From a virus (taxonomy: Duplodnaviria > Heunggongvirae > Uroviricota > Caudoviricetes), in the IMG/VR virus record IMGVR_UViG_2645727905_000013, positions 1-19,014 of that record: a stretch of 19,014 bases of DNA. One strand, 5' to 3'. Each line of letters begins with the position of its first letter. Position 1 is the first letter of the stretch. Shown here piece by piece: positions 1,860 through 16,728 of this stretch. The translations under genes and the position numbers were made by a program. Under the pieces are notes generated by a model. That model was not told where the DNA came from. It made no database searches and saw only the letters and a program-made list of their open reading frames with translations.

Positions 1860-1874
1860 ATAAACTCCGTACAT

Positions 1875-1896
1875 AAAAAATCCCACCGGAGTGGGA
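1875..1896 (-). terminator. Possible weak intrinsic terminator/attenuator between tape-measure and DNA-circulation genes
   Basis: On the minus strand: 6-bp stem tcccac/gtggga with a 4-nt loop, followed immediately by a T6 run. Confidence 0.3.
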
Positions 1897-1919
1897 CTCA
1901 TTAACAGATTAATTTTTCA

Positions 1920-2717
1920 TTACCTGCCAAAGCGCGTATAGCCAACATCATGGCTGACATCAAAACCGCTGGATCGCGTTTCCATAACCCGCATACCCGG
2001 AGGCGAATTCACAAAAGAGACCTTGATCTCACCATCAACTTTTGGCGCAGAAGCTTTGTTAATCATGAAGGGGGTCGGGCCTGTGACATCGGAGGCGTTG
2101 TTTGACTGAGCCGGATCTACCGCCGGATAAGGTGTGTATCCCCGCGCCGGTATTCCCGTCCCATAAGCATCATAAGCACCCGCGCCCCACTGCGCAGAGT
2201 TAATGGCATCGACCGTGTCACCGGAACTGTCGGTAAACCACTCAATAATTGGCTTCAGCTTGTCCCACATATCCTGAAACCACTTAACAACCGGCCCCCA
2301 GTTATTGATCACCATCCCCAGCGGCGACCAGGCAAAAACTTTCTTAAGGAGTTCCCAGCCGGCCTCAAAATAAGGACCAATGGTTTCCCAGAGTTTCTTA
2401 AAATAAGGTCCGACAACATCCCAGTTAGTGATAATTAATCCCGCAGCCAGGGCTATCGCCGTCGCAATCATGCCAATCGGCGTCATCGACATGATCCTGC
2501 TGACAATACTGATGGCACCGCCAACGCCCATCAATCCCAGTTTCAGAATCGCAAGACCGGCAGCAAGCCCGACGACGCCGCGAATAACCCGGGGATTTTC
2601 ATCCGCAAACTTCGTGAATTTCTCCCCCAACTCCCCCAGCCATTGCGTGATATTTTTAGCGTCACCAGAAAATGCGCCGCCAATAGCTGCAAGACCGTTA
2701 GTTGCGGTCCCCGTCAT
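1920..2717 (-). CDS. Tail tape measure protein, C-terminal segment (downstream of in-frame TAG)
   Basis: 265-aa ORF with a long Gly/Ala-rich hydrophobic stretch typical of tape-measure C-terminal regions. It is in the same frame as ORF 2724..3623, separated only by TAG (2724-2726) plus two codons. Confidence 0.55.
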   Translation of the reverse strand: MTGTATNGLAAIGGAFSGDAKNITQWLGELGEKFTKFADENPRVIRGVVGLAAGLAILKLGLMGVGGAISIVSRIMSMTPIGMIATAIALAAGLIITNWDVVGPYFKKLWETIGPYFEAGWELLKKVFAWSPLGMVINNWGPVVKWFQDMWDKLKPIIEWFTDSSGDTVDAINSAQWGAGAYDAYGTGIPARGYTPYPAVDPAQSNNASDVTGPTPFMINKASAPKVDGEIKVSFVNSPPGMRVMETRSSGFDVSHDVGYTRFGR

Positions 2718-2723
2718 TGCCTC

Positions 2724-3623
2724 CTACAGGTTGGACAGCGTACCAAGCTGTGCCTGAACACGTTTATTCAGGCTGGCCTGTTTATTCATCTTCTGCTGGA
2801 TCTGATCGTAACCATCCTTCCCTTTATCGATCAGAGCATTGACCACCTGAAGGGTTTCGGCATCATCACCAAATATTGCCTTAAGTACACCTGTTCGCTT
2901 AACGTCGGTCAGTTTTCGCAGCTTTGCCAGTTGCCTGAACATGTTATCAAGACCGCCAAAACTCCCTTTGCCGTCAGTAAAATCGAGCTGCACTCCGAGT
3001 TTCTGGCGGGCCATAACTTTATTAACGTCCCTGATTTTCTTAACGCTTAATCCGGACTGGATAACTTTTCGCAGGGCATTACCTGCCGACTCCCCGTTCA
3101 TCCCCATCTGATCCATCATGACGCTGATGGGGGCAAGGCTCTGTGCAGCCTGAAGACCATCCTTGTTCACCATCTTCAGAACAGAACTGGTTTTAGTGAA
3201 GAAGGACAACATGTTGGTATCGTCAACGCCCAGATAAAACGCCTTCTGGATAGTGTCGAACAGCCCCATCATGTCTTCTGACGCCGTTCCGGTAGCATCC
3301 TGCATCTTTGCAGCAAACTCAGCAGCCGCTTCCGGTGTTTTTTTCAGTTGTACCGCAAGATAGGCTGTCGCTTTACCCACACCACCCAGAATGTTTTCTG
3401 CCGGGATCCCCTGACGCACCAGCATCTGCATCATGTTCTGGAAATCAGCCGTTGTACCGGGTAGCTGGTTACCCAGGCCAATAGCCAGTTTATTGATGTC
3501 CTGAAAGCGCTTTCCGACCTCACCGTTCGCATCCATCATGGCAACTTTCAGCCCGGTATCCATTTCCGCATAAAACAACGGAACCAGCGTATTCGACGGA
3601 ATGGTGTTAAAGCTTATCGTCAT
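2724..3623 (-). CDS. Tail tape measure protein, N-terminal segment (ends at in-frame amber codon)
   Basis: 299-aa alpha-helical, Gln/Lys/Ala-rich ORF located upstream of the DNA-circulation gene as in Mu-type tails. Minus-strand read across the junction is ctg tag gag gca atg. Confidence 0.55.
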   Translation of the reverse strand: MTISFNTIPSNTLVPLFYAEMDTGLKVAMMDANGEVGKRFQDINKLAIGLGNQLPGTTADFQNMMQMLVRQGIPAENILGGVGKATAYLAVQLKKTPEAAAEFAAKMQDATGTASEDMMGLFDTIQKAFYLGVDDTNMLSFFTKTSSVLKMVNKDGLQAAQSLAPISVMMDQMGMNGESAGNALRKVIQSGLSVKKIRDVNKVMARQKLGVQLDFTDGKGSFGGLDNMFRQLAKLRKLTDVKRTGVLKAIFGDDAETLQVVNALIDKGKDGYDQIQQKMNKQASLNKRVQAQLGTLSNL

Positions 3624-3785
3624 CGGTATTCACCTTTTTATTCACGCGCCGGATATCACCCGCTGCTTCACGGCGCAGCCAGTAGTTGTTCTCGTCAACA
3701 TTTCGCCCTTCGGCGGGCAAAAGGTCGCCGCGGGCAGGGTCAGGAACTGACCGCCCTTTAACAGGTTTGACAAACATGAGGATCC

Positions 3786-4139
3786 TCAGGAAGGAAGGGT
3801 TATTTCGGTGTGATGTTCGATATCGCCGTCAGGCCCGTTACCGGGCTCGAGATAATCAACATCAATCGCCAGCGTTTGCAGTTCATCCAGACTGTTCAGA
3901 TCATCCTGCTGGCGGGTATCGTCTTCGGTCAGCTCGCTGATGATCGAAAAATCGAACTGATAAATCAGCTCATGACGATTCAGATCCAGCAGCGTGCCGC
4001 CGTCATAGGTAATCGGGTTACCGCACGCTTCCGGGTTCCAGCCCAGCAGAGCCTTAAAGAGCATCTGCCGGATATCCGTTCCTTCTGACCATGCCACCAT
4101 ATCCAGGAAAGCTTTACGCTGGGAATTTAGTATCTGCAT
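3786..4139 (-). CDS. Endolysin remnant: lambda R-type N-terminus (about 22 aa) fused to unrelated acidic sequence
   Basis: MQILNSQRKAFLDMVAWSEGTD closely matches the recalled lambda R N-terminus MVEINNQRKAFLDMLAWSEGTD; the remainder does not resemble R. The gene sits immediately downstream of the holin, as R does. Confidence 0.4.
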   Translation of the reverse strand: MQILNSQRKAFLDMVAWSEGTDIRQMLFKALLGWNPEACGNPITYDGGTLLDLNRHELIYQFDFSIISELTEDDTRQQDDLNSLDELQTLAIDVDYLEPGNGPDGDIEHHTEITLPS

Positions 4140-4142
4140 AAA

Positions 4143-4469
4143 TTACTCCTTAGAGCCACCAAACTTGTTACCGATCACTCTCATTGCAGCCCCACGAATT
4201 GCATCGACACCAATCAGCCCAACACCGCCACCAATGGCAACAGAAAGAGATTTAGGCCATCCGACATACTCAAGAGCGGATGCAAAAGTCAGCGTCAGAG
4301 CACCACAGAGCAAAATCTCGAGCGTTTTTCGCTTCCACCCACCACCACCGCCAAAATAGGCAATGCGCAATCCAGCCATAACAATCGACATAATCACTGC
4401 GCCAAGAGGCGTATCTCCACGCCACCAGCTCTGGAACAACTCCAGCCAGGTATTTGGGTTATGAGGCAT
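4143..4469 (-). CDS. Holin, lambda S family (class I)
   Basis: 108 aa with hydrophobic helices and a charged C-terminus. Segment LRIAYFGGGGGWKRKTLEILLCGALTL parallels lambda S [24 protein letters not shown]. It lies directly upstream of the R-like ORF. Confidence 0.65.
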   Translation of the reverse strand: MPHNPNTWLELFQSWWRGDTPLGAVIMSIVMAGLRIAYFGGGGGWKRKTLEILLCGALTLTFASALEYVGWPKSLSVAIGGGVGLIGVDAIRGAAMRVIGNKFGGSKE

Positions 4470-4766: not shown

Positions 4767-5609
4767 ATGTTAGATACACTATCGTTCACTGAACGTGACG
4801 AGTTCCAACGAAGAAACATCGCTGAAAATATCATCAAGTTGCTAAAACCAGAGGCAGACATTTCACCACTGGTAATAGATGGCGCATGGGGAACAGGGAA
4901 ATCAGAATTTAGTATCAAACTGAAAAATCTCATTATTGAGCAAGAACCCGAATCTAAAGTTGTTTATATTGATGCCTTTAAAGGGGATCATGCAGAATCT
5001 CCATTACTTCTCATAACCTCTGCAATTGCCAGCATTTTGCCTGAGGAAGAAAAACAACACTTCATTAAGAGGTCTCTTCCTGCAATTCGATTTGGTTTAA
5101 AAACTGTACTAAAAGCTGGTGCAGGTTGGTTTTTACGACAGGAGGCTAGTGAAGTTGCCGAAGAATTCCAAGATGCGATGAAGAAAGCAAGCAATGCAGC
5201 AATAGATGGGACTATTGAAAGTTTGCTTGAAGACCATATGGAATCAGAGAAAAACATAAATTCACTTAAATCTTGCATCGAAAGTATTTCAGAAAATCAA
5301 AAGATAGTAATTATAATTGATGAATTAGATCGATGTAAGCCGAGTTTTTCAACAAATGTCATTGAAACAATAAAACACATTTTTGACATCAATAATGTCT
5401 TTTTTATTTTAGTTACAAACACAGAACAATTAAGAGCATCGATAAATCATATTTATGGTTATAGTATTAACTCACAAAAGTATCTTGACAAGTTTATAAA
5501 ATATACCATCACGCTTCCAGATACATGTTTGATAAATGGTCACGACGTATGTAAAGCCTCTGTTATATATTGGAATTACCTTGTAGAAAAAAACAAGATC
5601 ATTAAATGA
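4767..5609 (+). CDS. KAP-family P-loop NTPase, N-terminal part (Walker A and B present); gene appears frameshifted
   Basis: Walker A VIDGAWGTGKSEF (GxWGxGKS type) and Walker B IVIIIDELDRC (DELDRC) are the KAP NTPase signatures. AT-rich composition. Encoded on the opposite strand between Q and the lysis genes. Confidence 0.7.
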   Translation: MLDTLSFTERDEFQRRNIAENIIKLLKPEADISPLVIDGAWGTGKSEFSIKLKNLIIEQEPESKVVYIDAFKGDHAESPLLLITSAIASILPEEEKQHFIKRSLPAIRFGLKTVLKAGAGWFLRQEASEVAEEFQDAMKKASNAAIDGTIESLLEDHMESEKNINSLKSCIESISENQKIVIIIDELDRCKPSFSTNVIETIKHIFDINNVFFILVTNTEQLRASINHIYGYSINSQKYLDKFIKYTITLPDTCLINGHDVCKASVIYWNYLVEKNKIIK

Positions 5610-5757: not shown

Positions 5758-6099
5758 ATGATCTTTGTCGTAGCTGTCTTCATACATTGCTTTGGTGACA
5801 AGGAAAAACTAAAACACGAAATTACCGCTGAATCTATATCTTATTTAGCAGACCTGCTTAAAATAAAAGAGATACCTTATTCTTATGAGATGAGTTCGAA
5901 AATCCCTAAAATATCAATTGTATTCTTTGGAATAATTAAAGACAGTATTACTCTTAATGAGCGATTTGCTCCTAAAAGTGATGAAGAACTAAAAAGATTC
6001 ACCAAAGTTTATACTGATTATGACCACCTAAATTTTTGGAGTACTACACCCAGAGAGTTATTGATAAAATATATCAATCAAATGTCATTCATTCAGTAA
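5758..6099 (+). CDS. Probable C-terminal continuation of the KAP NTPase gene in the +1 frame
   Basis: This frame is open from 5587 (just after a TAG at 5584-5586) through 6099, overlapping the end of the upstream ORF. Deleting one A from the A7 run (5587-5593) fuses the two ORFs into about 443 aa. The first ATG is only at 5758. Confidence 0.4.
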   Translation: MIFVVAVFIHCFGDKEKLKHEITAESISYLADLLKIKEIPYSYEMSSKIPKISIVFFGIIKDSITLNERFAPKSDEELKRFTKVYTDYDHLNFWSTTPRELLIKYINQMSFIQ

Positions 6100-6512: not shown

Positions 6513-7508
6513 TCAGGCCAGTACGCCAATTGCCAGCGCACGATCGATAAAACGAAATATCAGCTCCAGCTGAGAGCCATACTTCTCTTCAAATGCCACG
6601 GTATCCGCATGCAGCTCGTCGTGATGCTTTCTGCACAAAGGCAACACAAAGAGGTCATGCGCTTTTGTACCCATTCCACCCTGACCGTGGCCTATCAGAT
6701 GGTGGGGATCATCAGCAGGCTTTCCACAACATGCACACGGCTGTGTCTTAACCCAGCGCGTGTACTTTTCATTAACCCAGCGGCGGCTTTTTGGGCGTAA
6801 CATAAAAGACTCCGGCGACTCCGGATCCACTTTCAGCGCCAGCACCTTTTTCGCTTTATCCAGGATGATGCTGGTGGCAGGAACCGAAGGCACAAGGTCA
6901 CTTTCCCGGGTGACAGACGGCACAACAGGTTTCGGTAATCTCAGCGCCTTACGGGCTACGCTTTCAGGTAAGGCATCCGCCAGGTCATTACGAATCAGCC
7001 ACCAGCACAGTTCCGGCATTGTCACGGCATGGTTATCATCAAAATCGAGATCCCGACGGACTACAGACAACACCCAACGGGCACAGTTATCCGTTGCCAT
7101 TGATTCCAGCCGCTCCGTGAACTGATCACGTAACTGATTATCGCAGTGCCAGCACAGACGGATTGCGCCCGGCGCGTGTCGCATTGTGGTCATGTTCTCG
7201 CTGTGCCAGTCGGAATGAGGCCACTGGCAGCCTTTTTCACGAAGTAACCAGCTTTCAAGACATTCCACCCCACCAGCACGACGAATCACTGCCTCATTAC
7301 GGAACACGGCCCGAACGGCAGGATCATCCGCCAGCGGTTGTGATGCCGCCGGAACGGCACCACTGGCGAAAGATGAATAACGTTCCGGCTCAGGCTCCAG
7401 CAGGACACGCCCCTGCATAAACAGGGGCATCAGCTCTGAACCTGGCCTGAACAATACGATCCCCATACGCGGGGCAATTTCAGGGGTCAGTAGCGCTCTC
7501 ACGGTCAC
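6513..7508 (-). CDS. DUF968-like phage protein with C-terminal HNH/zinc-finger-like motif (YdfU-like)
   Basis: C-terminus CACCGKPADDPHHLIGHGQGG...CRKHHDELH has an HNH-type Cys/His pattern. It sits immediately upstream of Q, as ydfU does relative to quuQ in the Qin prophage (recalled). Confidence 0.5.
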   Translation of the reverse strand: MTVRALLTPEIAPRMGIVLFRPGSELMPLFMQGRVLLEPEPERYSSFASGAVPAASQPLADDPAVRAVFRNEAVIRRAGGVECLESWLLREKGCQWPHSDWHSENMTTMRHAPGAIRLCWHCDNQLRDQFTERLESMATDNCARWVLSVVRRDLDFDDNHAVTMPELCWWLIRNDLADALPESVARKALRLPKPVVPSVTRESDLVPSVPATSIILDKAKKVLALKVDPESPESFMLRPKSRRWVNEKYTRWVKTQPCACCGKPADDPHHLIGHGQGGMGTKAHDLFVLPLCRKHHDELHADTVAFEEKYGSQLELIFRFIDRALAIGVLA

Positions 7509-7509
7509 C

Positions 7510-8319
7510 TCAATGAACGGTATCGAGCAGCTTTAACAGCTCAGGGAATCGGGATTCGAAGAAATGCGGCTGCGTCTCGCGCGGATTTGCGGGACTGGTG
7601 ATGTTCTTGCCGAACATGCAGCCTTTCGCCGTCAGCGACCAGAATTTTTTGATGTTGTTAATCGCAGTGCGGCTGTATCGTTCACGTTGTTCAACGATCC
7701 CCAGCTTCGCCATCTGGTGATATGCCTGATTAGCTGTCAGGCGGATACCATACTGCTTCAGCAGTGCACTCAGTGACAGCGTGGGGCGGCTTGAGCCATC
7801 AGGCGCGTCAGCAGGAGCATCAATGGCATAGCGCGGTGCCAGATTCGGTAAGCCAACAGCCTCCTGGAGTTTCTGACAGGCACCAAGCACTGAAGAGTTA
7901 GACAGGTTTAACTCCCGGCGCATAAAGTCCAGCAGGATCACGCCAGCCTGCATCTTGTCAGCAGCCTGTCCGGATAATTTTTCCGGTGCGCTGGTTACCA
8001 TATCGAAAGTACGGATCACCTTCAGATGGAATGACGGGCTGATCCACATTGCATAGGCATACACCAGTTCCTTGCAGACATATGTTCCCCGTTCATTTCC
8101 CCCATGAATCACACTCACCGGGTCAACACCCAAATTCTGGGTGTTGGTCAATTCATGAACAAGCTCAACAGTTTGTTGGCTGGAAAGAAACTTTCCCGGC
8201 TCCTTGGTTCTGGCATTTGCACCAGATGCTACTGCTGCGCGATGCAGATCGTTCAGGCTGTAACGCCCATAAGCATCACGACGAACTTCAATACCATCAA
8301 TGACCATCAGATTATTCAT
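7510..8319 (-). CDS. KilA-N domain protein (antirepressor-like)
   Basis: N-terminal MVIDGIEVRRDAYGRYSLNDLHRAA... is typical of the KilA-N domain. Start placed at the ATG at 8317-8319, which has a GAGGAG SD about 8 nt upstream. Confidence 0.65.
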   Translation of the reverse strand: MNNLMVIDGIEVRRDAYGRYSLNDLHRAAVASGANARTKEPGKFLSSQQTVELVHELTNTQNLGVDPVSVIHGGNERGTYVCKELVYAYAMWISPSFHLKVIRTFDMVTSAPEKLSGQAADKMQAGVILLDFMRRELNLSNSSVLGACQKLQEAVGLPNLAPRYAIDAPADAPDGSSRPTLSLSALLKQYGIRLTANQAYHQMAKLGIVEQRERYSRTAINNIKKFWSLTAKGCMFGKNITSPANPRETQPHFFESRFPELLKLLDTVH

Positions 8320-8338
8320 ACTTCGTTTCTCCTCTTGA

Positions 8339-8728
8339 TCAGGCGGCTGCACCCGCCGTTTTCTCGTACTTACTGATAGTGATCTCGACCTTCCCTTCCG
8401 GGATAACCGGTCCCCACTCCACCAGCATTCTTTTCACCTGACTGTCGTCTTCCCACACACCCGCGTGGGTCAGGGCGTCAAACAGCGCCTTGTTATAGTT
8501 GTCCAGATCGCGGATCCGGTTATCCGGAGGAAACAACACGATCTCCACTGAAGCAGGTGCCGACGTTGGTTTTGGCAGACGACGTAACTGCTCAACTATT
8601 GCTGCACACGCTGCGCTCTGGAATTTGCGCCCCGCCGCGCTTATCAGGCTCTTACCTGCAAACGCCCCTTTGTTGGGGTGTCGCCAGTACGTGTTCACGC
8701 TGGGCGGGAAAGGCAGGATCAGCTTCAT
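8339..8728 (-). CDS. rusA: Holliday junction resolvase RusA
   Basis: 129 aa; ...PPSVNTYWRHPNKG...RDLDNYNKALFDALTHAGVWEDDSQV... parallels E. coli RusA (PPSNNRYYRH...[27 protein letters not shown]). Its ATG overlaps the stop of the upstream gene. Confidence 0.8.
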   Translation of the reverse strand: MKLILPFPPSVNTYWRHPNKGAFAGKSLISAAGRKFQSAACAAIVEQLRRLPKPTSAPASVEIVLFPPDNRIRDLDNYNKALFDALTHAGVWEDDSQVKRMLVEWGPVIPEGKVEITISKYEKTAGAAA

Positions 8729-9051
8729 ACTTTCAGGCCCCTCTCATGTAACCAGTGGGCTGCACGCAGCCTGGCGTTTTCCTCACCGGCAAGCAGTGAG
8801 CGGATAATCCCGACCGCCTCGCTGTCGTCGTCCTTCACCGCGGTATGAAGCGTTATCCCCCGGGCCACGCCACGCTTTATCGTGATGACGCCTTTTTTCT
8901 CCAGCGCACGAAGATGCTCCACCGCTGCATTCACCGAACGGTATCCCAGCATGGTTGCCACCTCCTGATTGGTTGGTGGGAAGCCACGTTCTTTCTGATA
9001 AGAAATCAGCATATCCAGCACCTGCTGCTGGCATTGAGTTAACGTCGTCAT
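8725..9051 (-). CDS. LexA N-terminal DNA-binding-domain-only protein (no S24 peptidase domain)
   Basis: MTTLTQCQQQVLDMLISYQKERGFPPTNQEVATMLGYRSVNAAVEHLRALEKKGVITIKRGVARGITL aligns with the LexA N-terminus ([68 protein letters not shown]). It retains an AGE linker motif but ends about 25 aa later. Start (ATG at 9049-9051) overlaps the upstream stop (TAATG). Confidence 0.65.
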   Translation of the reverse strand: MTTLTQCQQQVLDMLISYQKERGFPPTNQEVATMLGYRSVNAAVEHLRALEKKGVITIKRGVARGITLHTAVKDDDSEAVGIIRSLLAGEENARLRAAHWLHERGLKV

Positions 9052-9545
9052 TAAGCCCCCACGTAATTCCCTGACAGATACCACTCTTCACCCGATGCAG
9101 CGCGCTTGCTGCTTTTCCGTAAGCACCGCTCACGACGCGCCAGAAAATTGTTTCGTTCTGGCTGGGAGTGGCTTTCACGGAATGCCGCCATCCACACGGT
9201 TGCAGCACGACGAAATAAGCCCCTGGACTCCAGTTCTTCCGCCTGGCGGGCCAGGCACAAAATCACCCGCGGGTCGTTAGTGCCGACATAGAAATTGCGC
9301 ACAGGTCTGGTTTCACGAACTGGTTGCCGTTCCGCCTCCGGAGATATCTTTGTCTGGCGCGGGAAATGTCTGCGTGTATCCCCTTCACAACGGTGAGCCA
9401 CACGCCCACTCTGACGTAACTTGCTTGCTGACTGCAGAACGCGCTGCCGTGAGTAACCTGCAAAAGCATCAGCAATGTCTCCGGAAGTACCCCCTGGATG
9501 GGCTTCAATGAATTTCTGAACTTCATTCAAAAGACTCATAATCAC
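9051..9545 (-). CDS. Hypothetical regulator; C-terminal region PerC/ANR-like
   Basis: 164-aa ORF whose ATG overlaps the stop of the replication gene (ATGA). C-terminal ARQAEELESRGLFRRAATVWMAAF...RRERCL resembles the recalled PerC/Pch motif GLWRRAAxRW. The N-terminal half may be a winged helix. Confidence 0.4.
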   Translation of the reverse strand: MIMSLLNEVQKFIEAHPGGTSGDIADAFAGYSRQRVLQSASKLRQSGRVAHRCEGDTRRHFPRQTKISPEAERQPVRETRPVRNFYVGTNDPRVILCLARQAEELESRGLFRRAATVWMAAFRESHSQPERNNFLARRERCLRKSSKRAASGEEWYLSGNYVGA

Positions 9546-10483
9546 CCCCTGAATCCTGCCGGGATCTGGCTGTAGTCCACATTGTCGTAACTGGCTTTGA
9601 AGTACGGGTCTTCACGTTTTTCTGTGTGCGTGCTGACGGACGGCGATAAGCGCAGGGAAAGCTCATCCCATTTTTCCCGCAACTTCGACGGGCTGAGCAC
9701 GTTACGGCACCAGAACGGATCGCGGCTGACGCGGCTGTACATCTCGCAGATTTGTTTGTGAGTACGACCATCCTGCACACACATCAGGCGAATTTCGTTT
9801 GCCCAGGCTGTCCAGTTCGGTTCTTTGGGACGAATCACCTCGCCGTCACATTCGGCGGCCTGCTCGTACAGGGCGATGATTTTTTTCCAGAGCCACTGTG
9901 CGCAGGTCAAATCATCCTGCGTTCCCCACTGACGCTTTTTAGGGCTGAATACAACCGCATCAGGATGGCGAGTTAAAAAATCCTGTTCATCCGTCTGCGT
10001 GTCCGGTTGCGAAGCGTCCGGACGAGAAGTTTTTTTATCTGACGGATCATGTTTTGATTTTACTGACGGATCCCCGCCAGATTCTGACGGGTGAAAACCC
10101 GCTTTTTTGCCAGATTTCGACGCATCAAATTTTGACGGGTCAGATTTTGATGCGTCAGATTTTGACGGGTCAGAATCTGACAGTTGAGAAAATGCCGCTG
10201 CCTGAAGCTTCGCAACGTTAAGCTGATAAACATTCGACGCATTGCGGTTACCCTGGCGACGCGCCTTACGCGTTAACCAGCCTTCTGCTTCCAGCCGTGC
10301 GATAGCCGTTCTGACGGTACTCATCCCCGCGCCAATCTGGCGGGCAATGGTTTCAATTGATGGCCAGCACACACCTTCGTCATTACTGAAATCAGCCAGG
10401 CGGGCCATAATTGCCACGCTGGATAACTTCATGCCTGATGCAGCGCAACCATCCCATACATAGCCGGTTAATTTAGTACTCAT
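9542..10483 (-). CDS. Phage replication initiation protein (lambda O-like role), N-terminal wHTH, internal repeat linker
   Basis: N-terminal wHTH-like segment SIETIARQIGAGMSTVRTAIARLEAEGWL. A repetitive linker (SDSDPSKSDASKSDPSKFDASKSG) is encoded by tandem 15-bp DNA repeats. Located downstream of cro and the cII-position genes. Confidence 0.6.
   Translation of the reverse strand: MSTKLTGYVWDGCAASGMKLSSVAIMARLADFSNDEGVCWPSIETIARQIGAGMSTVRTAIARLEAEGWLTRKARRQGNRNASNVYQLNVAKLQAAAFSQLSDSDPSKSDASKSDPSKFDASKSGKKAGFHPSESGGDPSVKSKHDPSDKKTSRPDASQPDTQTDEQDFLTRHPDAVVFSPKKRQWGTQDDLTCAQWLWKKIIALYEQAAECDGEVIRPKEPNWTAWANEIRLMCVQDGRTHKQICEMYSRVSRDPFWCRNVLSPSKLREKWDELSLRLSPSVSTHTEKREDPYFKASYDNVDYSQIPAGFRG
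10038..10185. repeat. Iteron-like tandem direct repeats (candidate replication origin) inside the replication initiator gene
   Basis: Four or more tandem 15-bp units (caaattttgacgggt, cagattttgatgcgt, cagattttgacgggt, cagaatctgacagtt) plus degenerate upstream copies, with an adjacent T-rich tract (agtttttttatc, 10029-10040). Confidence 0.55.
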
Positions 10484-10652
10484 GACCGACCTCTATTTCC
10501 CTGAATTTACGACGAAACTGTTCGAGCGGACTGAAGCATTCATGCTCATAACCTTCGCGGAGGTAGATAACCCGTTGTGTTTCCGGCTCCCAACGAATGA
10601 CTCTGACGGGCACTCCGTAGTGATCTTTGAACCAGCGGTTAACTTGTCGCAA
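10473..10652 (-). CDS. Small ORF (59 aa, TTG start) overlapping the 3' end of ORF 10493..10831; alternatively the displaced C-terminus of that gene
   Basis: AAGGAG SD 8 nt upstream of TTG; translation [59 protein letters not shown] is protein-like. Its stop overlaps the start region of the replication gene. Below the 60-aa ORF-track cutoff. Confidence 0.3.
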
Positions 10653-10831
10653 AGGACTGTCTCCTTCTGCCGGTTGAAATCACCCACAGCCCACTCTGCA
10701 AAGCTGTGGGTTACAATTTCCCTGTCACCTGGTACATTCACTGCATAGCAATATTCCACCTTCGCTTTTCCACCCGGTACAGGAAGCGCAATCAGTTGCG
10801 AGCGACGGTAGTGTGTTGTTAAACTGTTCAT
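10493..10831 (-). CDS. Hypothetical protein (C-terminal third looks non-protein-like; possible frameshift)
   Basis: ATG overlaps the stop of the upstream gene (ATGA at 10828-10831), which supports the start. A second frame with a strong SD carries protein-like sequence over its 3' part. Confidence 0.35.
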
Positions 10832-11442
10832 GCGTTAGTTTCTCCACAACCAGAAGCAATCGACGCCACGACGCCCGGAGCTGCACACTCGCGGGCGTCA
10901 TTACTTTCTGAAATGCAAAAAATTTTGTAGACAAGTGCTGCATGCTCCTGCAGCTTCGAAATTGAGAGATACAGCTCGTCGTTAATTGCTGTCTTCTCAT
11001 GCGGTTCCACTACACCGTCTTCAATTGCTGAACGAATCTGTTTTGAATAACTGCCGATCTGTTCAATGACTTCCAGCAGGCGCTGGTTAATATCGGCGTT
11101 GTCCACATCCTCGACGTCAGGAAGAGACACAAAGACGCCATTTGCAGACTGCGCCACAGCGTCAGCAATGAAGTGAGTTCCACCAGCACGTTGCAAAATC
11201 ATTGCCCATCCCAGCGGGAAAATCTGATCGCCATCTGCACGAAGGCGGTTAAATAATGCGTTCTCTGTTACATCCAGCCAGTCAGCTGCTTCAGCGTAAC
11301 CACCCGGCAACGCTGCGATAGTTTTTCTGACAGCTTTCACGTACCACTCAGGCTGTTTTTCTACTTTCCAGTGATGCTTACCCACGGTTAGCCTCATCGT
11401 TCTGTGGTTTCTGTTAATCGATTTATCCATTAGATTTTTCAT
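10828..11442 (-). CDS. Hypothetical early protein in the cII/YdaT position downstream of cro
   Basis: Long ORF directly following cro. Start uncertain: ATGs at 11440-11442 and 11428-11430 overlap or abut the cro stop; the ORF-track start at 11499 would overlap cro by 77 nt. Function not recognised. Confidence 0.4.
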
Positions 11443-11623
11443 AAAGCTCAGGTTTAAATGGCAACCGTCCGCAAGTTCTATATGCAGCTTCTGCTGCACG
11501 TCCTTTTGGAATTAACTGGCCCGGACGGTTTCGCCACTGATAAACGGCTTCAGTTGTTATGCCGAAAAAAGCAGCAACTTTCTCAATACTGCCGAAGTAG
11601 CTTTCGATATCGTCAGTTGTCAT
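11423..11623 (-). CDS. cro: Cro-like HTH regulator
   Basis: 66-aa HTH protein (GITTEAVYQWRNR) transcribed divergently from the CI-like repressor, with a GGAGGG SD upstream. Confidence 0.7.
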   Translation of the reverse strand: MTTDDIESYFGSIEKVAAFFGITTEAVYQWRNRPGQLIPKGRAAEAAYRTCGRLPFKPELYEKSNG

Positions 11624-11720
11624 ACGCCCTCCAAACTAAGTTTTATTAGATGCTAATTACAAATCTATCTTTGGTCAACAAAAACTAAGATTACTTAGTA
11701 ATTAAAGAAATGGTGCTCCT
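11624..11720. promoter_or_regulatory. cI-cro intergenic operator/promoter region (OR-like)
   Basis: 97-bp AT-rich divergent intergenic region containing the palindrome ACTAAGattaCTTAGT (11684-11699) and a further ACTAAG copy (11635-11640). A possible minus-strand promoter is TTGACC, 17 nt, TAGCAT. Confidence 0.5.
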
Positions 11721-12347
11721 ATGGAAACGGTTGGTCAGCGTATAAAAGCTCTGAGAAGAGTAACCAGAACGTCCCAGAAAGAATTGGGTAAATTTTGTGG
11801 AGTAAGCGACGTTGCTGTGGGGTACTGGGAGAAAGACATCAATACCCCTGGTGGGGAGGCACTTTCGAAATTAGCGAAGTTCTTCAATACGTCAATAGAT
11901 TACATTCTTTATGGTGCTGAGTTTGAAGGCAAACTCGTCACAAACATGCGCAGAGTTCCTGTAATATCGTGGGTTCAGGCTGGGCAGTTTACTGAGTGCA
12001 GGGCAGCAGAAGTGTTTAGTGAAGTGGACAAGTGGGTAGATACATCATTAAAGATTGGTGATAACTCATTTGCATTAGAGGTTAAAGGTGACTCCATGAC
12101 TAACCCTAATGGCCTCCCAACAATACCAGAAGGCGCAACAGTGATTGTAGATCCAGATGCAGAACCTCGTCATGGAAAAATAGTCATCGCTCGACTTGAT
12201 GGAACAAACGAAGCTACAGTAAAAAAATTAGTCATCGATGGCCCTCAAAAGTTTTTAGTGCCATTAAATCCTCGGTATCCCAACATCCCTATCAATGGTA
12301 ATTGCCTTATCATTGGTGTAGTCAAAGGAGTTCAATACGAACTCTAA
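11721..12347 (+). CDS. cI: CI-like prophage repressor (HTH-XRE N-domain plus S24 LexA-type autopeptidase C-domain)
   Basis: N-terminal HTH (QKELGKFCGVSDVAVGYWEKD), a putative Ala-Gly cleavage site (VQAGQF), catalytic Ser in GDSM and Lys in TVKKL. Confidence 0.85.
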   Translation: METVGQRIKALRRVTRTSQKELGKFCGVSDVAVGYWEKDINTPGGEALSKLAKFFNTSIDYILYGAEFEGKLVTNMRRVPVISWVQAGQFTECRAAEVFSEVDKWVDTSLKIGDNSFALEVKGDSMTNPNGLPTIPEGATVIVDPDAEPRHGKIVIARLDGTNEATVKKLVIDGPQKFLVPLNPRYPNIPINGNCLIIGVVKGVQYEL

Positions 12348-12357
12348 GACCTCTCTT

Positions 12358-12430
12358 TTCTAACTAAGGCACCGAACTAAGAAAAGTTTGGTGTTTTCTC
12401 TTGCCATAATAACTAAGTTAAGTTAGATTT
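12358..12430 (+). promoter_or_regulatory. Candidate OL/pL-like region downstream of cI (repeated ACTAAG motifs; possible promoter)
   Basis: ACTAAG at 12363-12368, 12377-12382 and 12413-12418, the same hexamer as in the cI-cro operators. Possible promoter TTGCCA (12401-12406), 17 nt, TAGATT (12424-12429). Confidence 0.25.
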
Positions 12431-12534
12431 TATGTCAAAGATAACGAACAGGCAGGACGCGCACGAAGTAGCCCGCCCGGTACGTACGAAGACCGGGATG
12501 ATTCGTTAGCGGATGATTTCAGTGGAGAGAATAG

Positions 12535-12843
12535 ATGAATGAGCAGGATTTGAAGCATGTGATCGCATTGTTGCTGGAAGACGCTAAACGTTTGCAGCAG
12601 ATAGAGCCAAATGCAGGCACTGAGGCCCGTATTTTGTTAGCAAAACAGGCATTAAAGACTTGCGGGGCGCAAGACCCTGATCGAACCAAGTTCATGAATT
12701 TCATGGCTAACACGATCACCCCACTGCCATGCAATGGAGAGAGGGTTAGCCGTGTTTATCACGACACAATGGTTAAGGCATTAAGAATCGAGCTTGATGG
12801 GCTTAGGCGTAAGATCGTGATGAACAAAATCGTTGCCAACTAA
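12535..12843 (+). CDS. Hypothetical immunity-region protein
   Basis: 102-aa ORF with a GGAGAG SD at appropriate spacing; first gene downstream of cI. No family recognised. Confidence 0.4.
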   Translation: MNEQDLKHVIALLLEDAKRLQQIEPNAGTEARILLAKQALKTCGAQDPDRTKFMNFMANTITPLPCNGERVSRVYHDTMVKALRIELDGLRRKIVMNKIVAN

Positions 12844-13122
12844 GGAAGCAGACGGAAGTAAGCATGCGCTTTGTTCAAATTTGCAGACAAATATATTTGC
12901 GTCAACACCAGCACTGTTAGCAATGGAAAAAGTTTGATCAAGGATTTGTTGGCAGTTCATTGTGCTTTTGAGGATATATCCCTCTGGAATCAGTCTGCAG
13001 CAGCTATCGTCAGACTCTTTGATTGTTTTCTGGTACAGAAAGTTAAGCATTAATTCTTCAAATTTTTTGGTCTGTTCGGCTGTTGCTTCAAACAGACGAA
13101 CGTGAACATAAAACTGGTTCAT
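12781..13122 (-). CDS. Hypothetical protein encoded antisense to the early-left operon (immunity-region moron candidate)
   Basis: ORF with an AGGAAA SD 5 nt upstream of the ATG at 13120-13122 (protein MNQFYVHVRLFEATAEQ...). Relatively AT-rich. Convergent with 12535..12843, overlapping it by 63 nt. Confidence 0.35.
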   Translation of the reverse strand: MNQFYVHVRLFEATAEQTKKFEELMLNFLYQKTIKESDDSCCRLIPEGYILKSTMNCQQILDQTFSIANSAGVDANIFVCKFEQSACLLPSASLVGNDFVHHDLTPKPIKLDS

Positions 13123-13401
13123 TAGATTTCCTTGCTGGCTGTGTGAGAACTCCAGCATACCACCGAGCCTGAAGTGGTGAAAAGACAGGCAATAGTTTCA
13201 TTGCTGTGTGTAGTCTTGGCGGTACCAGCTTGTACCCTTGCTTCCGGCTGGTACCGTCCTTTTTACAAAACAGAGAAGAGTATCACCGGACGACGGGCTC
13301 ATAACCCAATCCATCCGGGCGGCTGCCACCGCAGGTGTTCTTCTCTGTTTTGTGGAGAAACCAACCGACCTTGCAGGGTCGATATGATGAGGAGCAGCAA
13401 A

Positions 13402-13764
13402 ATGGCTAGCGAACGCAGTACTGATGTGCAGGCATTTATCGGGGAGCTGGACGGCGGCATATTTGAAACCAAAATCGGCGCTGTTCTCAGTGAAGTCGCT
13501 TCCGGTGTGATGAACACAAAAACCAAAGGGAAAGTCTCACTCAACCTGGAAATCGAACCATTTGATGAGAACCGTGTGAAAATCAAACACAAACTCTCAT
13601 ATGTTCGCCCGACTAACCGCGGGAAAATTTCCGAAGAAGACACCACCGAAACGCCGATGTATGTCAATCGCGGTGGTCGCCTGACTATTCTGCAGGAAGA
13701 CCAGGGACAATTACTGACTCTTGCCGGTGAACCTGACGGAAAACTCCGCGCAGCAGGTCGTTAA
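13402..13764 (+). CDS. Hypothetical phage protein (possibly YfdP-like)
   Basis: Strong GAGGAG SD 8 nt upstream of the ATG at 13402. The ORF-track N-terminal extension from 13174 is Cys/Arg-rich and implausible. Confidence 0.45.
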   Translation: MASERSTDVQAFIGELDGGIFETKIGAVLSEVASGVMNTKTKGKVSLNLEIEPFDENRVKIKHKLSYVRPTNRGKISEEDTTETPMYVNRGGRLTILQEDQGQLLTLAGEPDGKLRAAGR

Positions 13765-13829
13765 TATCGTTTTTAATAAACTGATTATTTATCTCATCAC
13801 TGAATATCTTTATATAGTGAGGACTTATT

Positions 13830-15359: not shown

Positions 15360-15620
15360 ATGAGGTTATCAAAAATGCTTCAAATGCTGACACTTGAGGA
15401 ATGGGCTACGGAAAAATACAGAAGTAATCCTCCAAGTGTGTCCACATTGCGTCGTTATGCTAAGCAGAATTTATTTTGTCCACCGGCAATGAAACAAGGT
15501 CGACTATGGCGAGTGCGTGAGGACGCAGAGTTAGTTGGGGAATTAGTTACTCCTGTCATCAAGAAAAGTGATTCTATTATTCTACAAAGGATTTTAAGTA
15601 ATGGCAGCCAGACCACGTAA
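15360..15620 (+). CDS. xis: Excisionase (lambda Xis-like)
   Basis: LTLEEWATEKYRSNPPSVSTLRRYAKQNLFCPPAMKQGRLWRV parallels lambda Xis (YLTLQEWNARQRRPRSLETVRRWVRECRIFPPPVKDGREYLF). Overlaps the integrase start by 20 nt. Start may be the internal ATG at 15375 or 15384. Confidence 0.7.
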   Translation: MRLSKMLQMLTLEEWATEKYRSNPPSVSTLRRYAKQNLFCPPAMKQGRLWRVREDAELVGELVTPVIKKSDSIILQRILSNGSQTT

Positions 15621-16728
15621 AAATAATGTTTCAGTCCCGAACTTGTATCCGCTCTATAGCAGAAAAGTAAATAAAGTCTATTGGCGATATAAGCATCCAG
15701 TGACCGGGAAGTTTCATTCTTTGGGCACAAACGAAGCTGAAGCCATTGCTATTGCCACTGAGGCCAATACACGCCTGGCTGAGCAAAGAACCCGGCAGAT
15801 TCTGGCTATCAGTGACAGGATCGCAACCAGCAAAGGAAAAGCGATAACAACATCAACATGGTTAGACCGCTACCAGGCCATCCAGGATGACAGGCTGAAA
15901 AGTGGTGATATAAGACTCAACACCTATAAGCAGAAAGCCAAACCAGTATCCTTGCTCAGGGAACGAGCAGGAATGAAATTGATTTCAGCTGTTGATGTCA
16001 GGGATATAGCACAATTGCTTGACGAGTATATCGCTGCCGGGCAACCGAGAATGGCCCAAGTTGTAAGGTCTGTATTGATTGATGTGTTTAAGGAAGCACA
16101 GCACTATGGCGAAGTTCCGCCAGGGTATAACCCTGCTCTTGCGACGAAGCAACCCAGAAGGAAAATTACCCGTCAACGCCTCAGCCTGGAAGAATGGCAA
16201 AAAATCTTTGATATCGCAGATGCCAGTCATCGTTATATGGGAAATGCCATGCTGTTAGCACTGGTTACTGGCCAGCGGTTAGGTGATATTTCGCGTATGA
16301 AATTTAGCGATATTTGGGATGATCATCTTCACGTCATTCAGGAAAAGACCGGGAGCAAAATCGCCATCCCGCTTTCTCTTCGCCTCAATGCGATTAACTG
16401 GAGTTTACGCGATGTAGTATCCCGCTGCCGTGACTATGCAGTCAGCCCATACCTTGTACATTTTTTCCGTACGACTTCACAGGCTGAACGTGGCGCACAG
16501 GTTAAATCCAATACATTGACGATGAATTTCAGTAAAGCGAGGGATTTTGCAGGAATTGACTGGGGTGATGGCTCACCCGCAACATTCCATGAACAAAGGT
16601 CTTTATCTGAACGTCTGTACAAAGAACAGGGGTTAGACACACAAAAACTACTTGGTCATAAAACGCAACAACAAACCGATCGTTATCATGACGATCGCGG
16701 CAAAGGATGGAGCAAAGTTGCGTTGTGA
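15601..16728 (+). CDS. int: Tyrosine site-specific integrase, lambda Int family
   Basis: 375 aa. N-terminal arm-binding region (VPNLYPLYSRK...HPVTGKFHSLG) and C-terminal catalytic region (TFHEQRSLSERLYKEQ...LLGHKTQQQTDRYHDDRG) parallel lambda Int (PPNLYIRNNG..., TFHELRSLSARLYEKQ...LLGHKSDTMASQYRDDRG). Confidence 0.9.
   Translation: MAARPRKNNVSVPNLYPLYSRKVNKVYWRYKHPVTGKFHSLGTNEAEAIAIATEANTRLAEQRTRQILAISDRIATSKGKAITTSTWLDRYQAIQDDRLKSGDIRLNTYKQKAKPVSLLRERAGMKLISAVDVRDIAQLLDEYIAAGQPRMAQVVRSVLIDVFKEAQHYGEVPPGYNPALATKQPRRKITRQRLSLEEWQKIFDIADASHRYMGNAMLLALVTGQRLGDISRMKFSDIWDDHLHVIQEKTGSKIAIPLSLRLNAINWSLRDVVSRCRDYAVSPYLVHFFRTTSQAERGAQVKSNTLTMNFSKARDFAGIDWGDGSPATFHEQRSLSERLYKEQGLDTQKLLGHKTQQQTDRYHDDRGKGWSKVAL

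What the first reader, a model, noticed from the sequence alone, without database searches (positions are those of the whole stretch)
9051..9545. PerC/ANR-like regulator motif in a prophage early gene
The C-terminal region of this 164-aa ORF carries a motif resembling the PerC/Pch family (RGLFRRAATVW), whose prophage-encoded members regulate host virulence loci in pathogenic E. coli. The N-terminal 80 residues are an unexplained extension.
Basis: partly seen in the sequence, partly recalled or inferred. Interest (0 to 1): 0.4.

Follow-up and report, generated by a model that had tools for sequence, protein, structure and literature searches.

The report
Known prophage PerC-family gene yfdN
The flagged gene is yfdN, an already annotated PerC-family regulator gene found in prophages of about half of all E. 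coli genomes; its "unexplained" front part is predicted to be an ordinary winged-helix DNA-binding domain, and its real function is still untested.

Summary
A minus-strand ORF at 9051-9545 carries RGLFRRAATVW (9192-9224). The likely start is the ATG at 9539, giving 162 aa. Residues 98-149 match Pfam PerC above the curated cut-off (34.4 vs 22.6 bits). They align with EHEC PchE (42% identity, E 2e-9) and PchD. The signature A..LE..G..RRA...W...R...R..C is invariant across all homologues aligned.

The gene is yfdN (E. coli K-12 CPS-53; Shigella phages SfII and SfIV). RefSeq already labels it "PerC family transcriptional regulator", and it occurs in 2625 of 5426 complete E. coli genomes.

The N-terminal extension is a real domain under purifying selection (dN/dS about 0.15). 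AlphaFold2 and Foldseek place residues 1-60 in the winged-helix fold (ArsR/MarR/BlaI-like). A variable linker follows, then a three-helix PerC module and a conserved tail. This two-domain family is narrow and enterobacterial.

The gene always sits in the pR early operon after the O-like initiator, at the head of a (Dam)-LexA-DBD-RusA-KilA-N-DUF968-Q block. One Salmonella prophage also has a lambda-P gene, which argues against a helicase-loader role.

The most likely function is an early phage DNA-binding transcription or nucleoid modulator. That is inferred, not shown. Nothing supports control of host virulence loci. Novelty is low.

The parts
9051..9539 (-). yfdN-type CDS, 162 aa from the ATG plus stop (an alternative GTG start at 9545 gives 164 aa)
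   Evidence: ORF list and sequence. 97-99% DNA identity to genes annotated yfdN / PerC family transcriptional regulator in SfIV, SfII and E. coli genomes. PHROG 1324 matches full length, E 6.6e-75.
9360..9539 (-). N-terminal winged-helix domain, residues 1-60: H3-13, H19-25, recognition helix H31-44, wing strands E47-52 and E55-60
   Evidence: AF2 pLDDT about 79-91 over residues 1-60. Foldseek matches to ArsR/SmtB, MarR, BlaI/MecI and DsrD winged helices, rmsd 1.4-3 A over about 60 residues, probability 1.00 but E only 0.02-0.1. dN/dS median 0.15. Residues 31-60 carry 8 K/R against 2 D/E. No Pfam family hit.
9276..9359 (-). Variable Pro/Glu/Arg-rich linker, residues 61-88
   Evidence: pLDDT below 50 for residues 63-84. 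Indels and low conservation in alignments. dN/dS median 0.52.
9090..9275 (-). PerC-type three-helix module, residues 89-150 (helices 90-105, 109-122, 126-149). The Pfam PerC match covers residues 98-149, window 9093-9248.
   Evidence: Pfam PF06069 34.4 bits against GA 22.6. Aligned with PchE and PchD. pLDDT above 90. dN/dS 0.23.
9192..9224 (-). Motif RGLFRRAATVW, residues 106-116, spanning the helix 1-helix 2 turn and the start of helix 2
   Evidence: Position. R111, A112 and W116 are invariant across the YfdN family, PchE and PchD.
9054..9089 (-). Conserved C-terminal tail ...EEWYLSGNYVGA, residues 151-162; role unknown
   Evidence: Y154, L155, G157, V160 and G161 are invariant in A2. The tail is retained in distant members P0150, P0160 and P0163 and absent from PchD and PchE. 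Model confidence is low.
9542..10483 (-). Upstream O-like replication initiator (313 aa). Its last codons GGATTCAGGGGGTGA hold the Shine-Dalgarno sequence for yfdN. Iterons lie at 10111-10174.
   Evidence: PHROG 391 E 1.4e-135 and Pfam HTH_36. Tandem repeats. Sequence.
8725..9051 (-). Downstream LexA DNA-binding-domain-only gene (108 aa from the ATG). Its start overlaps the yfdN stop. It is a recurrent neighbour of yfdN.
   Evidence: Pfam LexA_DNA_bind 68.7 bits with no S24 peptidase domain. Same neighbourhood in SfII, SfIV, and Salmonella, Citrobacter and Kosakonia prophages.

Best explanation
The ORF is yfdN, a prophage early-operon gene for a two-domain protein. An N-terminal winged helix (residues 1-60) is joined by a flexible linker to a C-terminal PerC-type three-helix module (residues 89-150), followed by a short conserved tail.

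Shown here: family membership of the C-terminal module, purifying selection on both domains, the predicted folds, and the conserved position in the pR operon.

Inferred: after prophage derepression the gene is transcribed from pR, and it is translationally coupled to the O-like initiator. The basic recognition helix and wing of the winged helix bind DNA. The PerC module does what characterised PerC/Pch/ANR modules do, namely remodel repressive nucleoprotein complexes (Pch displaces H-NS/StpA/Hha) or bind regulatory proteins (ANR binds AraC-type activators and H-NS). The protein would therefore be a phage-encoded transcription or nucleoid modulator serving the phage's own early-to-late programme, not a dedicated host-virulence activator.

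Confidence that it is yfdN and a PerC-family member is above 0.95. The 0.5 given below refers to the mechanistic reading.
For: Identity:
- 97-99% DNA identity to annotated yfdN / PerC-family genes in SfIV, SfII and E. coli genomes; present in 2625 of 5426 complete genomes.
- The literature calls yfdN 'the K12 unique PerC homologue' (PMC5931665).

PerC module:
- Pfam 34.4 bits against GA 22.6.
- PchE 42% identity, E 2e-9; PchD E 2e-5.
- Invariant A100, L103, E104, R111, A112, W116, R129, R136, C139.
- Three helices at pLDDT above 90.

N-terminal domain:
- Winged-helix model with Foldseek hits to ArsR/MarR/BlaI-type DNA-binding domains.
- A weak MarR PHROG hit.
- Net charge +6 on the recognition helix and wing.
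- dN/dS 0.15, so it is selected as protein.
- The two-domain architecture is kept down to 25-44% identity.

Context:
- The gene is always at O-like -> yfdN -> (Dam) -> (LexA-DBD) -> RusA -> ... -> DUF968 -> Q, with KilA-N after RusA in the E. coli, Shigella, Salmonella and Citrobacter loci. Gene boundaries overlap, and no convincing minus-strand terminator lies between pR and yfdN.

Mechanistic precedent:
- Pch relieves H-NS/StpA/Hha silencing and associates with DNA at many loci (PMC4764244).
- ANRs are three-helix proteins that bind AraC-family regulators and H-NS (PMC4983702 and PMC5570504).
Against: - No experiment on YfdN itself was found. The papers that mention it only delete it as a precaution, or list it in overexpression or transcriptome screens.
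- The winged-helix assignment rests on an AF2 model from 17 fairly similar sequences. Foldseek E-values are 0.02-0.1 and there is no Pfam HTH hit.
- Winged helices can also mediate protein contacts.
- PerC-family members differ in the sign and target of their effects (activators, repressors, or no effect on LEE; PMC5931665, PMC11773190), so family membership does not predict function.
- Pch did not co-precipitate with H-NS (PMC4764244), so even the precedent mechanism is unsettled.
- The C-terminal module has no significant structural neighbour in the PDB.
Confidence: 0.5

Rival explanations
1. YfdN is an ANR-type anti-regulator that works purely by protein-protein contact. The PerC/ANR-like helices would sequester an AraC/XylS-family activator or H-NS-family protein. 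The winged helix would serve dimerisation or partner binding rather than DNA binding.
For: There is a sub-threshold but real match to NCBIfam ANR_neg_reg (E 2.2e-5). The C-module is a TPR/MIT-like three-helix bundle with no DNA-binding motif. ANRs bind AraC partners and H-NS (PMC4983702, PMC5570504). A PICI PerC-like protein represses LEE1 and was suggested to be ANR-like (PMC11773190).
Against: The score is below the ANR cut-off (24.2 against 32). The protein is about 18 kDa, not under 10 kDa. No AraC-family gene lies in the operon or elsewhere in the window. The basic recognition helix and wing are under strong purifying selection, which fits DNA binding.
Confidence: 0.2
2. YfdN is a replication accessory factor. 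It would be a functional stand-in for lambda P that links the O-like initiator to host DnaB/DnaC in prophages whose replication module otherwise has only an initiator.
For: yfdN lies immediately downstream of, and is translationally coupled to, the O-like initiator. No P, DnaB or DnaC gene is seen in the pR operon of the window, SfII, SfIV, a Stx2c phage, or the Citrobacter and Salmonella Poona prophages. Different O-like proteins that precede yfdN share the same C-terminal tail.
Against: A Salmonella prophage has the same O-like family, plus a bona fide Phage_lambda_P gene, plus yfdN, so yfdN and P are not alternatives. yfdN travels with the downstream nin-like block rather than with one initiator type. 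The shared GFRG* tail is explained by the codons that form the yfdN ribosome-binding site. There is no similarity to P, DnaC or DnaD loaders, and the N-domain is unrelated to the O-like protein.
Confidence: 0.06
3. YfdN is a dedicated regulator of host virulence loci, for example LEE1/ler activation like PerC and PchABC.
For: It shares the PerC family signature. PerC and PchABC activate ler (PMC5931665, PMC4764244). Authors deleted yfdN from a K-12 reporter strain as a precaution.
Against: The gene is present in 48% of complete E. coli genomes, including K-12 and commensals, and in Shigella, Salmonella, Citrobacter and Kosakonia prophages. Many of these hosts, K-12 among them, have no LEE (LEE distribution from general knowledge, not tested here). 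Even the closer single-domain relatives PchD and PchE have little or no effect on ler. The position in the pR operon points to a phage function.
Confidence: 0.05
4. The gene is a decaying, non-functional remnant in a defective prophage, and the motif is a fossil.
For: The prophage in the window is degraded: lysis, head and part of the tail genes are lost, and the neighbouring defence gene is split. Many database relatives are frameshifted or truncated. The window copy has G17 where nearly all homologues have C17.
Against: The ORF is intact and 93% identical to the common allele. The family shows dN/dS of 0.15-0.23 in both domains. It is present in viable phages SfII, SfIV and others.
Confidence: 0.04

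Closest known systems
YfdN of E. coli K-12 cryptic prophage CPS-53/KpLE1 and its orthologues in Shigella phages SfII (SfII_42), SfIV (gp42) and SfV (Orf40; that name is from my own recollection of the InterPro family title)
   Same: This is the same gene: 91-94% protein identity to the common E. coli alleles and 97-99% DNA identity. It has the same length, the same two-domain layout, and the same position after the O-like gene.
   Different: Only allelic differences, for example G17 instead of C17 and a few changes in the linker. The host prophage here is more degraded.
PerC (EPEC EAF plasmid) and PchA/B/C (EHEC prophage-like elements), Pfam PF06069
   Same: Shared signature A..LE..G..RRA...W...ER...R..C and a predicted three-helix module. 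All are encoded on mobile elements.
   Different: PerC and Pch are single-domain proteins of about 90-105 aa, encoded as cargo genes. They activate LEE1 by relieving H-NS/StpA/Hha silencing (PMC4764244). YfdN adds a winged helix, a linker and a conserved tail, sits inside the phage pR early operon, and has no demonstrated target.
PchD (ECs1388, 89 aa) and PchE (ECs1588, 90 aa) of E. coli O157:H7 Sakai
   Same: These are the closest characterised relatives compared here: 33% and 42% identity over the PerC core. PchE lies in a satellite-like element next to replication genes.
   Different: Both lack the N-terminal domain and the YfdN tail. PchE represses curli/csgD and promotes flagella when overexpressed (PMC6265319, PMC7369912). 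PchD has no clear phenotype.
ANR family (Aar, Rnr, Cnr; NCBIfam NF033650)
   Same: Three conserved alpha-helices and weak profile similarity (E 2.2e-5). A protein-interaction mode of action is plausible for the C-module.
   Different: The score is below the family cut-off, the protein is about twice the size, and it is not paired with an AraC-family activator. ANRs are anti-activators that bind AggR-type regulators and H-NS (PMC4983702, PMC5570504).
Small winged-helix DNA-binding domains (ArsR/SmtB, MarR, BlaI/MecI)
   Same: The predicted fold of residues 1-60 superposes at 1.4-3 A over about 60 residues.
   Different: No sequence-profile membership. There is no dimerisation helix or ligand/metal site typical of those families. 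The domain is essentially confined to the YfdN family: only 55 representative clusters in 1.8 billion proteins.

Membership tests
PerC family (Pfam PF06069) | Profile score at or above the curated gathering threshold | tested here: met
   34.4 bits against 22.6, E 2.7e-8, residues 98-149 on profile positions 5-56 of 90
PerC family (Pfam PF06069) | Conserved signature residues shared with characterised members | tested here: met
   A100, L103, E104, R111, A112, W116, R129, R136 and C139 are invariant across YfdN homologues, PchE and PchD. BLASTP E 2e-9 and 2e-5.
PerC family (Pfam PF06069) | Small single-domain all-helical protein of about 90-105 aa | tested here: not met
   162 aa with an extra N-terminal winged helix, linker and tail. 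The PerC module itself is all-helical.
PerC family (Pfam PF06069) | Activates the LEE1/ler promoter or relieves H-NS silencing (the property that named the family) | not testable with these tools
   No data found for YfdN. PchD and PchE show little or no effect, and other members repress (PMC5931665, PMC11773190).
ANR family (NCBIfam NF033650) | Profile score at or above the curated cut-off | tested here: not met
   24.2 bits against a cut-off of 32
ANR family (NCBIfam NF033650) | Protein under 10 kDa made of three conserved helices | tested here: not met
   Three helices are present, but the protein is 162 aa, about 18 kDa, with an added domain
ANR family (NCBIfam NF033650) | Accompanies, and binds, an AraC/XylS-family activator | tested here: not met
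   No AraC-family gene appears among the Pfam-scanned ORFs of the window or in the related loci. Binding itself cannot be tested here.
Winged-helix DNA-binding domain (ArsR/MarR-like fold) | Topology of H1-H2-H3 followed by a beta-hairpin wing, superposable on solved winged helices | tested here: met
   AF2 elements H3-13, H19-25, H31-44, E47-52 and E55-60. Foldseek rmsd 1.4-3 A to 3cuo, 1smt, 1sd6, 6j05 and others; E only 0.02-0.1. BFVD hits to MarR/ArsR HTH proteins.
Winged-helix DNA-binding domain (ArsR/MarR-like fold) | Membership in a curated HTH sequence family | tested here: not met
   No Pfam or NCBIfam hit for residues 1-90. Only PHROG 1687 'MarR family' at E 0.0015. PDB profile search found nothing.
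Winged-helix DNA-binding domain (ArsR/MarR-like fold) | Binds DNA | not testable with these tools
   Only indirect support: 8 K/R against 2 D/E in residues 31-60
Lambda P-type helicase loader (PF06992), considered as a rival | Homology to P, DnaC or DnaD loaders, or mutual exclusivity with them | tested here: not met
   No such Pfam or PHROG hit. yfdN co-occurs with a Phage_lambda_P gene in Salmonella locus L006.

The most novel reading that the evidence does not exclude
The winged-helix-PerC fusion would be a DNA-targeted form of the PerC/ANR module that lambdoid and SfV-like prophages deploy from pR. Its job would be to counter H-NS-family silencing, or otherwise reprogramme transcription, at specific phage or host sites, perhaps together with the adjacent LexA-DBD-only protein. 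If so, about half of all E. coli would carry an uncharacterised phage anti-silencer, and the family would show how the small, motif-less PerC/Pch proteins find their targets. A still more exotic reading, a P-like replication adaptor, is not strictly excluded but is unlikely (about 0.05).
Probability: 0.25. Interest if true: 0.45.

Novelty: already known. Interest (0 to 1): 0.15.

Why it matters
As a discovery it matters little. The gene is yfdN, and public annotation already labels it a PerC-family regulator in thousands of genomes. Two modest points have value. First, the N-terminal half, which no curated family covers, is predicted to be a selected winged-helix domain. This makes YfdN-type proteins the only PerC relatives compared here with a recognisable DNA-binding fold, and gives a testable handle on how PerC/Pch/ANR modules are targeted. 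Second, yfdN is one of the commonest uncharacterised prophage early genes in E. coli, Shigella and Salmonella, including serotype-converting and Stx2c phages. Knowing whether it modulates H-NS silencing, induction or lysogeny would have broad, if incremental, relevance.

Tried and rejected
- Profile search of the family against all PDB sequences found no hit, even at E 10.
- Foldseek with the C-terminal module alone gave only insignificant TPR/MIT/14-3-3-like three-helix matches (E above 0.5). There is no solved homologue, and I draw no mechanism from it.
- The afdb50 library was unavailable. BFVD gave only generic winged-helix hits.
- I tested whether the N-domain is a duplicate of the winged helix in the neighbouring O-like or LexA-like proteins. 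No similarity was found.
- PADLOC gave no defence-system hit for YfdN.
- The helicase-loader idea was considered because most of these prophages lack a P, DnaB or DnaC gene. It was downgraded after finding O + lambda-P + yfdN in one Salmonella prophage, and after seeing that the shared O-protein tail GFRG* simply encodes the yfdN ribosome-binding site.
- The genome-contig scan returned only 8 loci, because it holds one genome per species. It was useful for the Kosakonia relatives but too few for neighbourhood statistics.
- Porter et al. 2005 (PMC543544), which may have tested K-12 yfdN, is not held.
- PchD and PchE were checked as possible orthologues. They are single-domain proteins of 89-90 aa in unrelated contexts, so they are not orthologues.

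Full report
**1. Observation**

The window has a minus-strand ORF at 9051..9545, 164 aa from a GTG. The GTG lies inside GGATTCAGGGGGTGATTATG. There, TGA is the stop of the upstream gene, and GGGGG sits 5 nt before an ATG at 9539. The ATG start (162 aa, MSLLNEV...) is therefore more plausible, and SfII is annotated from that ATG. The motif RGLFRRAATVW is at residues 106-116 (window 9192-9224).

**2. Identity**

- The DNA is 97-99% identical to genes annotated "yfdN: PerC family transcriptional regulator" in E. coli RefSeq genomes.
- A match is present in 2625 of 5426 complete genomes, almost always on the chromosome.
- It also matches Shigella phage SfIV gp42 and SfII_42 ("PerC transcriptional activator family protein") and many other temperate phages, including Stx2c-converting phages.
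- The protein search returns hundreds of clusters named "PerC family transcriptional regulator" from Escherichia, Salmonella, Citrobacter and Hafnia.
- One paper explicitly calls yfdN "the K12 unique PerC homologue" and deletes it from a ler-lacZ reporter strain (PMC5931665).

The finding is therefore a rediscovery of a known, annotated gene.

**3. The PerC claim**

- Pfam PerC (PF06069) matches residues 98-149 at 34.4 bits, against a gathering score of 22.6 (E 2.7e-8).
- NCBIfam's ANR model also matches, but below its cut-off (24.2 against 32).
- I fetched PchE (ECs1588, 90 aa) and PchD (ECs1388, 89 aa) from the Sakai genome. BLASTP gives 42% identity over 48 residues (E 2e-9) for PchE and 33% (E 2e-5) for PchD.
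- In a joint alignment with YfdN homologues down to 25-30% identity (Kosakonia), nine residues are invariant: A100, L103, E104, R111, A112, W116, R129, R136 and C139.

PchD and PchE are single-domain proteins in unrelated genomic contexts. They are relatives of YfdN, not orthologues.

**4. The N-terminal "extension"**

- An AlphaFold2 model built on 17 homologues has mean pLDDT 78.5.
- Residues 1-60 form H3-13, H19-25, H31-44 and a beta-hairpin (47-52, 55-60), with block-mean pLDDT of 79-91.
- Residues 63-84 are disordered.
- Residues 90-149 form three helices with pLDDT above 90.
- Foldseek against the PDB matches the N-domain to winged-helix DNA-binding domains (E. coli 3cuo, SmtB, ArsR, MecI/BlaI, MarR/SlyA, DsrD) at rmsd 1.4-3 A over about 60 residues. 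Probability is 1.00, although E-values are only 0.02-0.1 for so small a domain. BFVD gives the same picture.
- PHROGs adds a weak MarR-family match for residues 6-59 (E 0.0015). It also shows that the two halves occur as separate PHROG families: 23071 for the N part, and 2608 and 10396 for the C part.
- The recognition helix and wing (31-60) carry 8 K/R against 2 D/E.

Nei-Gojobori dN/dS across nine E. coli, Shigella, Salmonella and Citrobacter alleles:

| Region | Residues | Median dN/dS |
|---|---|---|
| N-domain (winged helix) | 1-60 | 0.15 |
| Linker | 61-88 | 0.52 |
| PerC module | 89-150 | 0.23 |
| Tail | 151-162 | 0.50 |

So the N-terminal part is a real domain, at least as constrained as the PerC part, joined by a relaxed linker that carries indels.

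A full HMMER scan of 1.8 billion representative proteins with residues 1-95 found only 55 clusters. Nearly all are the same family or fragments of it. The most distant full-length members (32-44% identity) keep both domains and the tail. No curated family covers this domain.

**5. The C-terminal module and tail**

Modelled alone, the module is three antiparallel helices with pTM 0.67. It has only insignificant TPR/MIT/14-3-3-like neighbours in the PDB. This is a helical protein-interaction-type scaffold with no canonical DNA-binding motif. Helix 3 is very basic (8 K/R against 2 D/E).

A tail motif, W-Y-L-S/A-G-N-Y/F-V-G, is conserved throughout the YfdN family and absent from PchD and PchE. 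Its role is unexplained.

**6. Context**

- The window is an SfII/SfIV/SfV-like prophage: integrase at 15601-16728, DUF2303, a cI-type repressor with S24 peptidase at 11721-12347, and a pR-like promoter at 11678-11650.
- The minus-strand operon then runs cII-like, orf112, O-like initiator (iterons at 10111-10174), yfdN, LexA-DBD-only protein, RusA, KilA-N protein, DUF968/HNH and Q.
- Genes overlap or abut, and no convincing minus-strand terminator intervenes.
- The order O-like -> yfdN -> (Dam) -> (LexA-DBD) -> RusA -> ... -> DUF968 -> Q recurs in SfII, SfIV, a Stx2c phage with a different O-like protein, and in Salmonella, Citrobacter and Kosakonia prophages, with KilA-N after RusA in all but the Kosakonia loci.
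- Most of these prophages have no P, DnaB or DnaC gene, which raised the idea that YfdN substitutes for lambda P.
- However, Salmonella locus L006 has the same O-like family, a Phage_lambda_P gene and yfdN.
- The C-terminal GFRG* shared by different O-like proteins is encoded by the yfdN ribosome-binding site.

yfdN therefore behaves as the first gene of the nin-like block, not as part of the replication pair.

**7. Mechanism**

What is shown: family membership of the C-module, the predicted folds, purifying selection on both domains, and the conserved early-operon position.

What is inferred: expression from pR after derepression, DNA binding by the winged helix, and modulation of transcription or nucleoid structure by the PerC module.

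Precedents:
- Pch activates LEE1 only when H-NS/StpA/Hha silencing is present. It reduces H-NS occupancy and associates with many chromosomal loci, yet does not co-precipitate with H-NS (PMC4764244).
- ANRs are three-helix proteins under 10 kDa that bind AraC-family activators and H-NS (PMC4983702, PMC5570504).
- PerC-like proteins of mobile elements can activate LEE, repress it, or have no effect on it (PMC5931665, PMC6265319, PMC7369912, PMC11773190).

Family membership therefore does not predict target or sign. No functional experiment on YfdN was found. It appears only in an overexpression screen for glycogen phenotypes, in an NO-response gene list with other prophage genes, in a filamentation-screen region, and in a computed interactome cluster on negative regulation of transcription.

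I rate the "phage early DNA-binding modulator" reading at about 0.5. The rivals are a pure protein-binding ANR-like mode (about 0.2), a replication adaptor (about 0.06), a host LEE-type virulence regulator (about 0.05) and a dead remnant (about 0.04).

**8. Verdict**

The observation and interpretation are correct, but the feature is already known and annotated. The only increment is the fold assignment and selection evidence for the N-terminal domain, plus the exclusion of some alternatives. Interest is low.

Noticed in passing
window 1-4469: The prophage is degraded. Tail genes at 26-4076 match SfII 7364-13809 in two pieces, with an internal loss of about 2.4 kb, and abut the holin gene (4143-4469). 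Endolysin, terminase, portal and head genes are missing. ORF 3786-4139 retains only a fragment of a tail-terminator profile.
   Followed up: partly
window 4767-5609 and 5758-6099 (+): A KAP-family P-loop NTPase lies between Q and the holin gene. It matches the PADLOC candidate defence system PDC-S20 (E 9.5e-143). It is split into a 280-aa piece (profile 4-281 of 450) and a 113-aa piece (profile 337-449), so it is probably inactivated. An intact 443-aa version sits at the same place in Salmonella loci L016 and L018.
   Followed up: partly
window 8725-9051 (-): A LexA DNA-binding-domain-only protein (108 aa, PF01726 at 68.7 bits, no S24 peptidase/dimerisation domain) overlaps the yfdN stop. It recurs next to or near yfdN in Shigella, Salmonella, Citrobacter and Kosakonia prophages. 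It might interfere with SOS boxes; function unknown.
   Followed up: partly
window 9542-10483 (-), repeats at 10111-10174: The O-like initiator has 4.3 copies of a 15-bp iteron (CAGATTTTGACGGGT), which encode the repeated PSKSDASKSD peptide; this is the probable origin. The pR operon of this and related phages (SfII, SfIV, Stx2c) has no recognisable P, DnaB or DnaC gene, whereas Salmonella locus L006 pairs the same O family with a lambda-P gene.
   Followed up: partly
window 9054-9089 (-); proteins P0150, P0160, P0163: The C-terminal tail W-Y-L-S/A-G-N-Y/F-V-G is conserved throughout the YfdN family and absent from PchD and PchE. It is modelled at low confidence and has no explanation.
   Followed up: no
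window 9489-9491 (-), residue 17: The window allele has Gly17 (HPGGTS), where nearly all homologues have Cys17 (HPGCTS), just before helix 2 of the winged helix. Significance unknown.
   Followed up: no
window 16977-17897 (+) and 18331-19014 (-): Just outside the prophage, beyond the integrase, lie two genes. One is a SMEK-domain protein that hits PADLOC Aga_REase-PNTD (E 9e-16). The other is a trypsin-like ORF that runs off the window end and weakly hits LmuA (E 4.7e-7). This may be a defence island next to the attachment site.
   Followed up: no
L002 11104-12045 (Sakai Sp7) and L003 32944-35147 (Sakai SpLE1): pchE sits in a satellite-like element (integrase, primase, SSB, then head, portal and terminase genes). 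pchD sits directly after ibrA/ybdM (PAPS-reductase-like plus partner). The short PerC-family genes therefore occupy quite different mobile-element niches from yfdN.
   Followed up: no
window 8783-9208 (-): A 141-aa alternative-frame ORF overlaps yfdN and the LexA-like gene. Its peptide (..CGWRHSVKATPSQNETIFWRVV..) appears as the C-terminus of several database 'homologues' (P0103, P0109, P0117). Those entries are thus frameshifted yfdN copies, not evidence for a second gene.
   Followed up: yes
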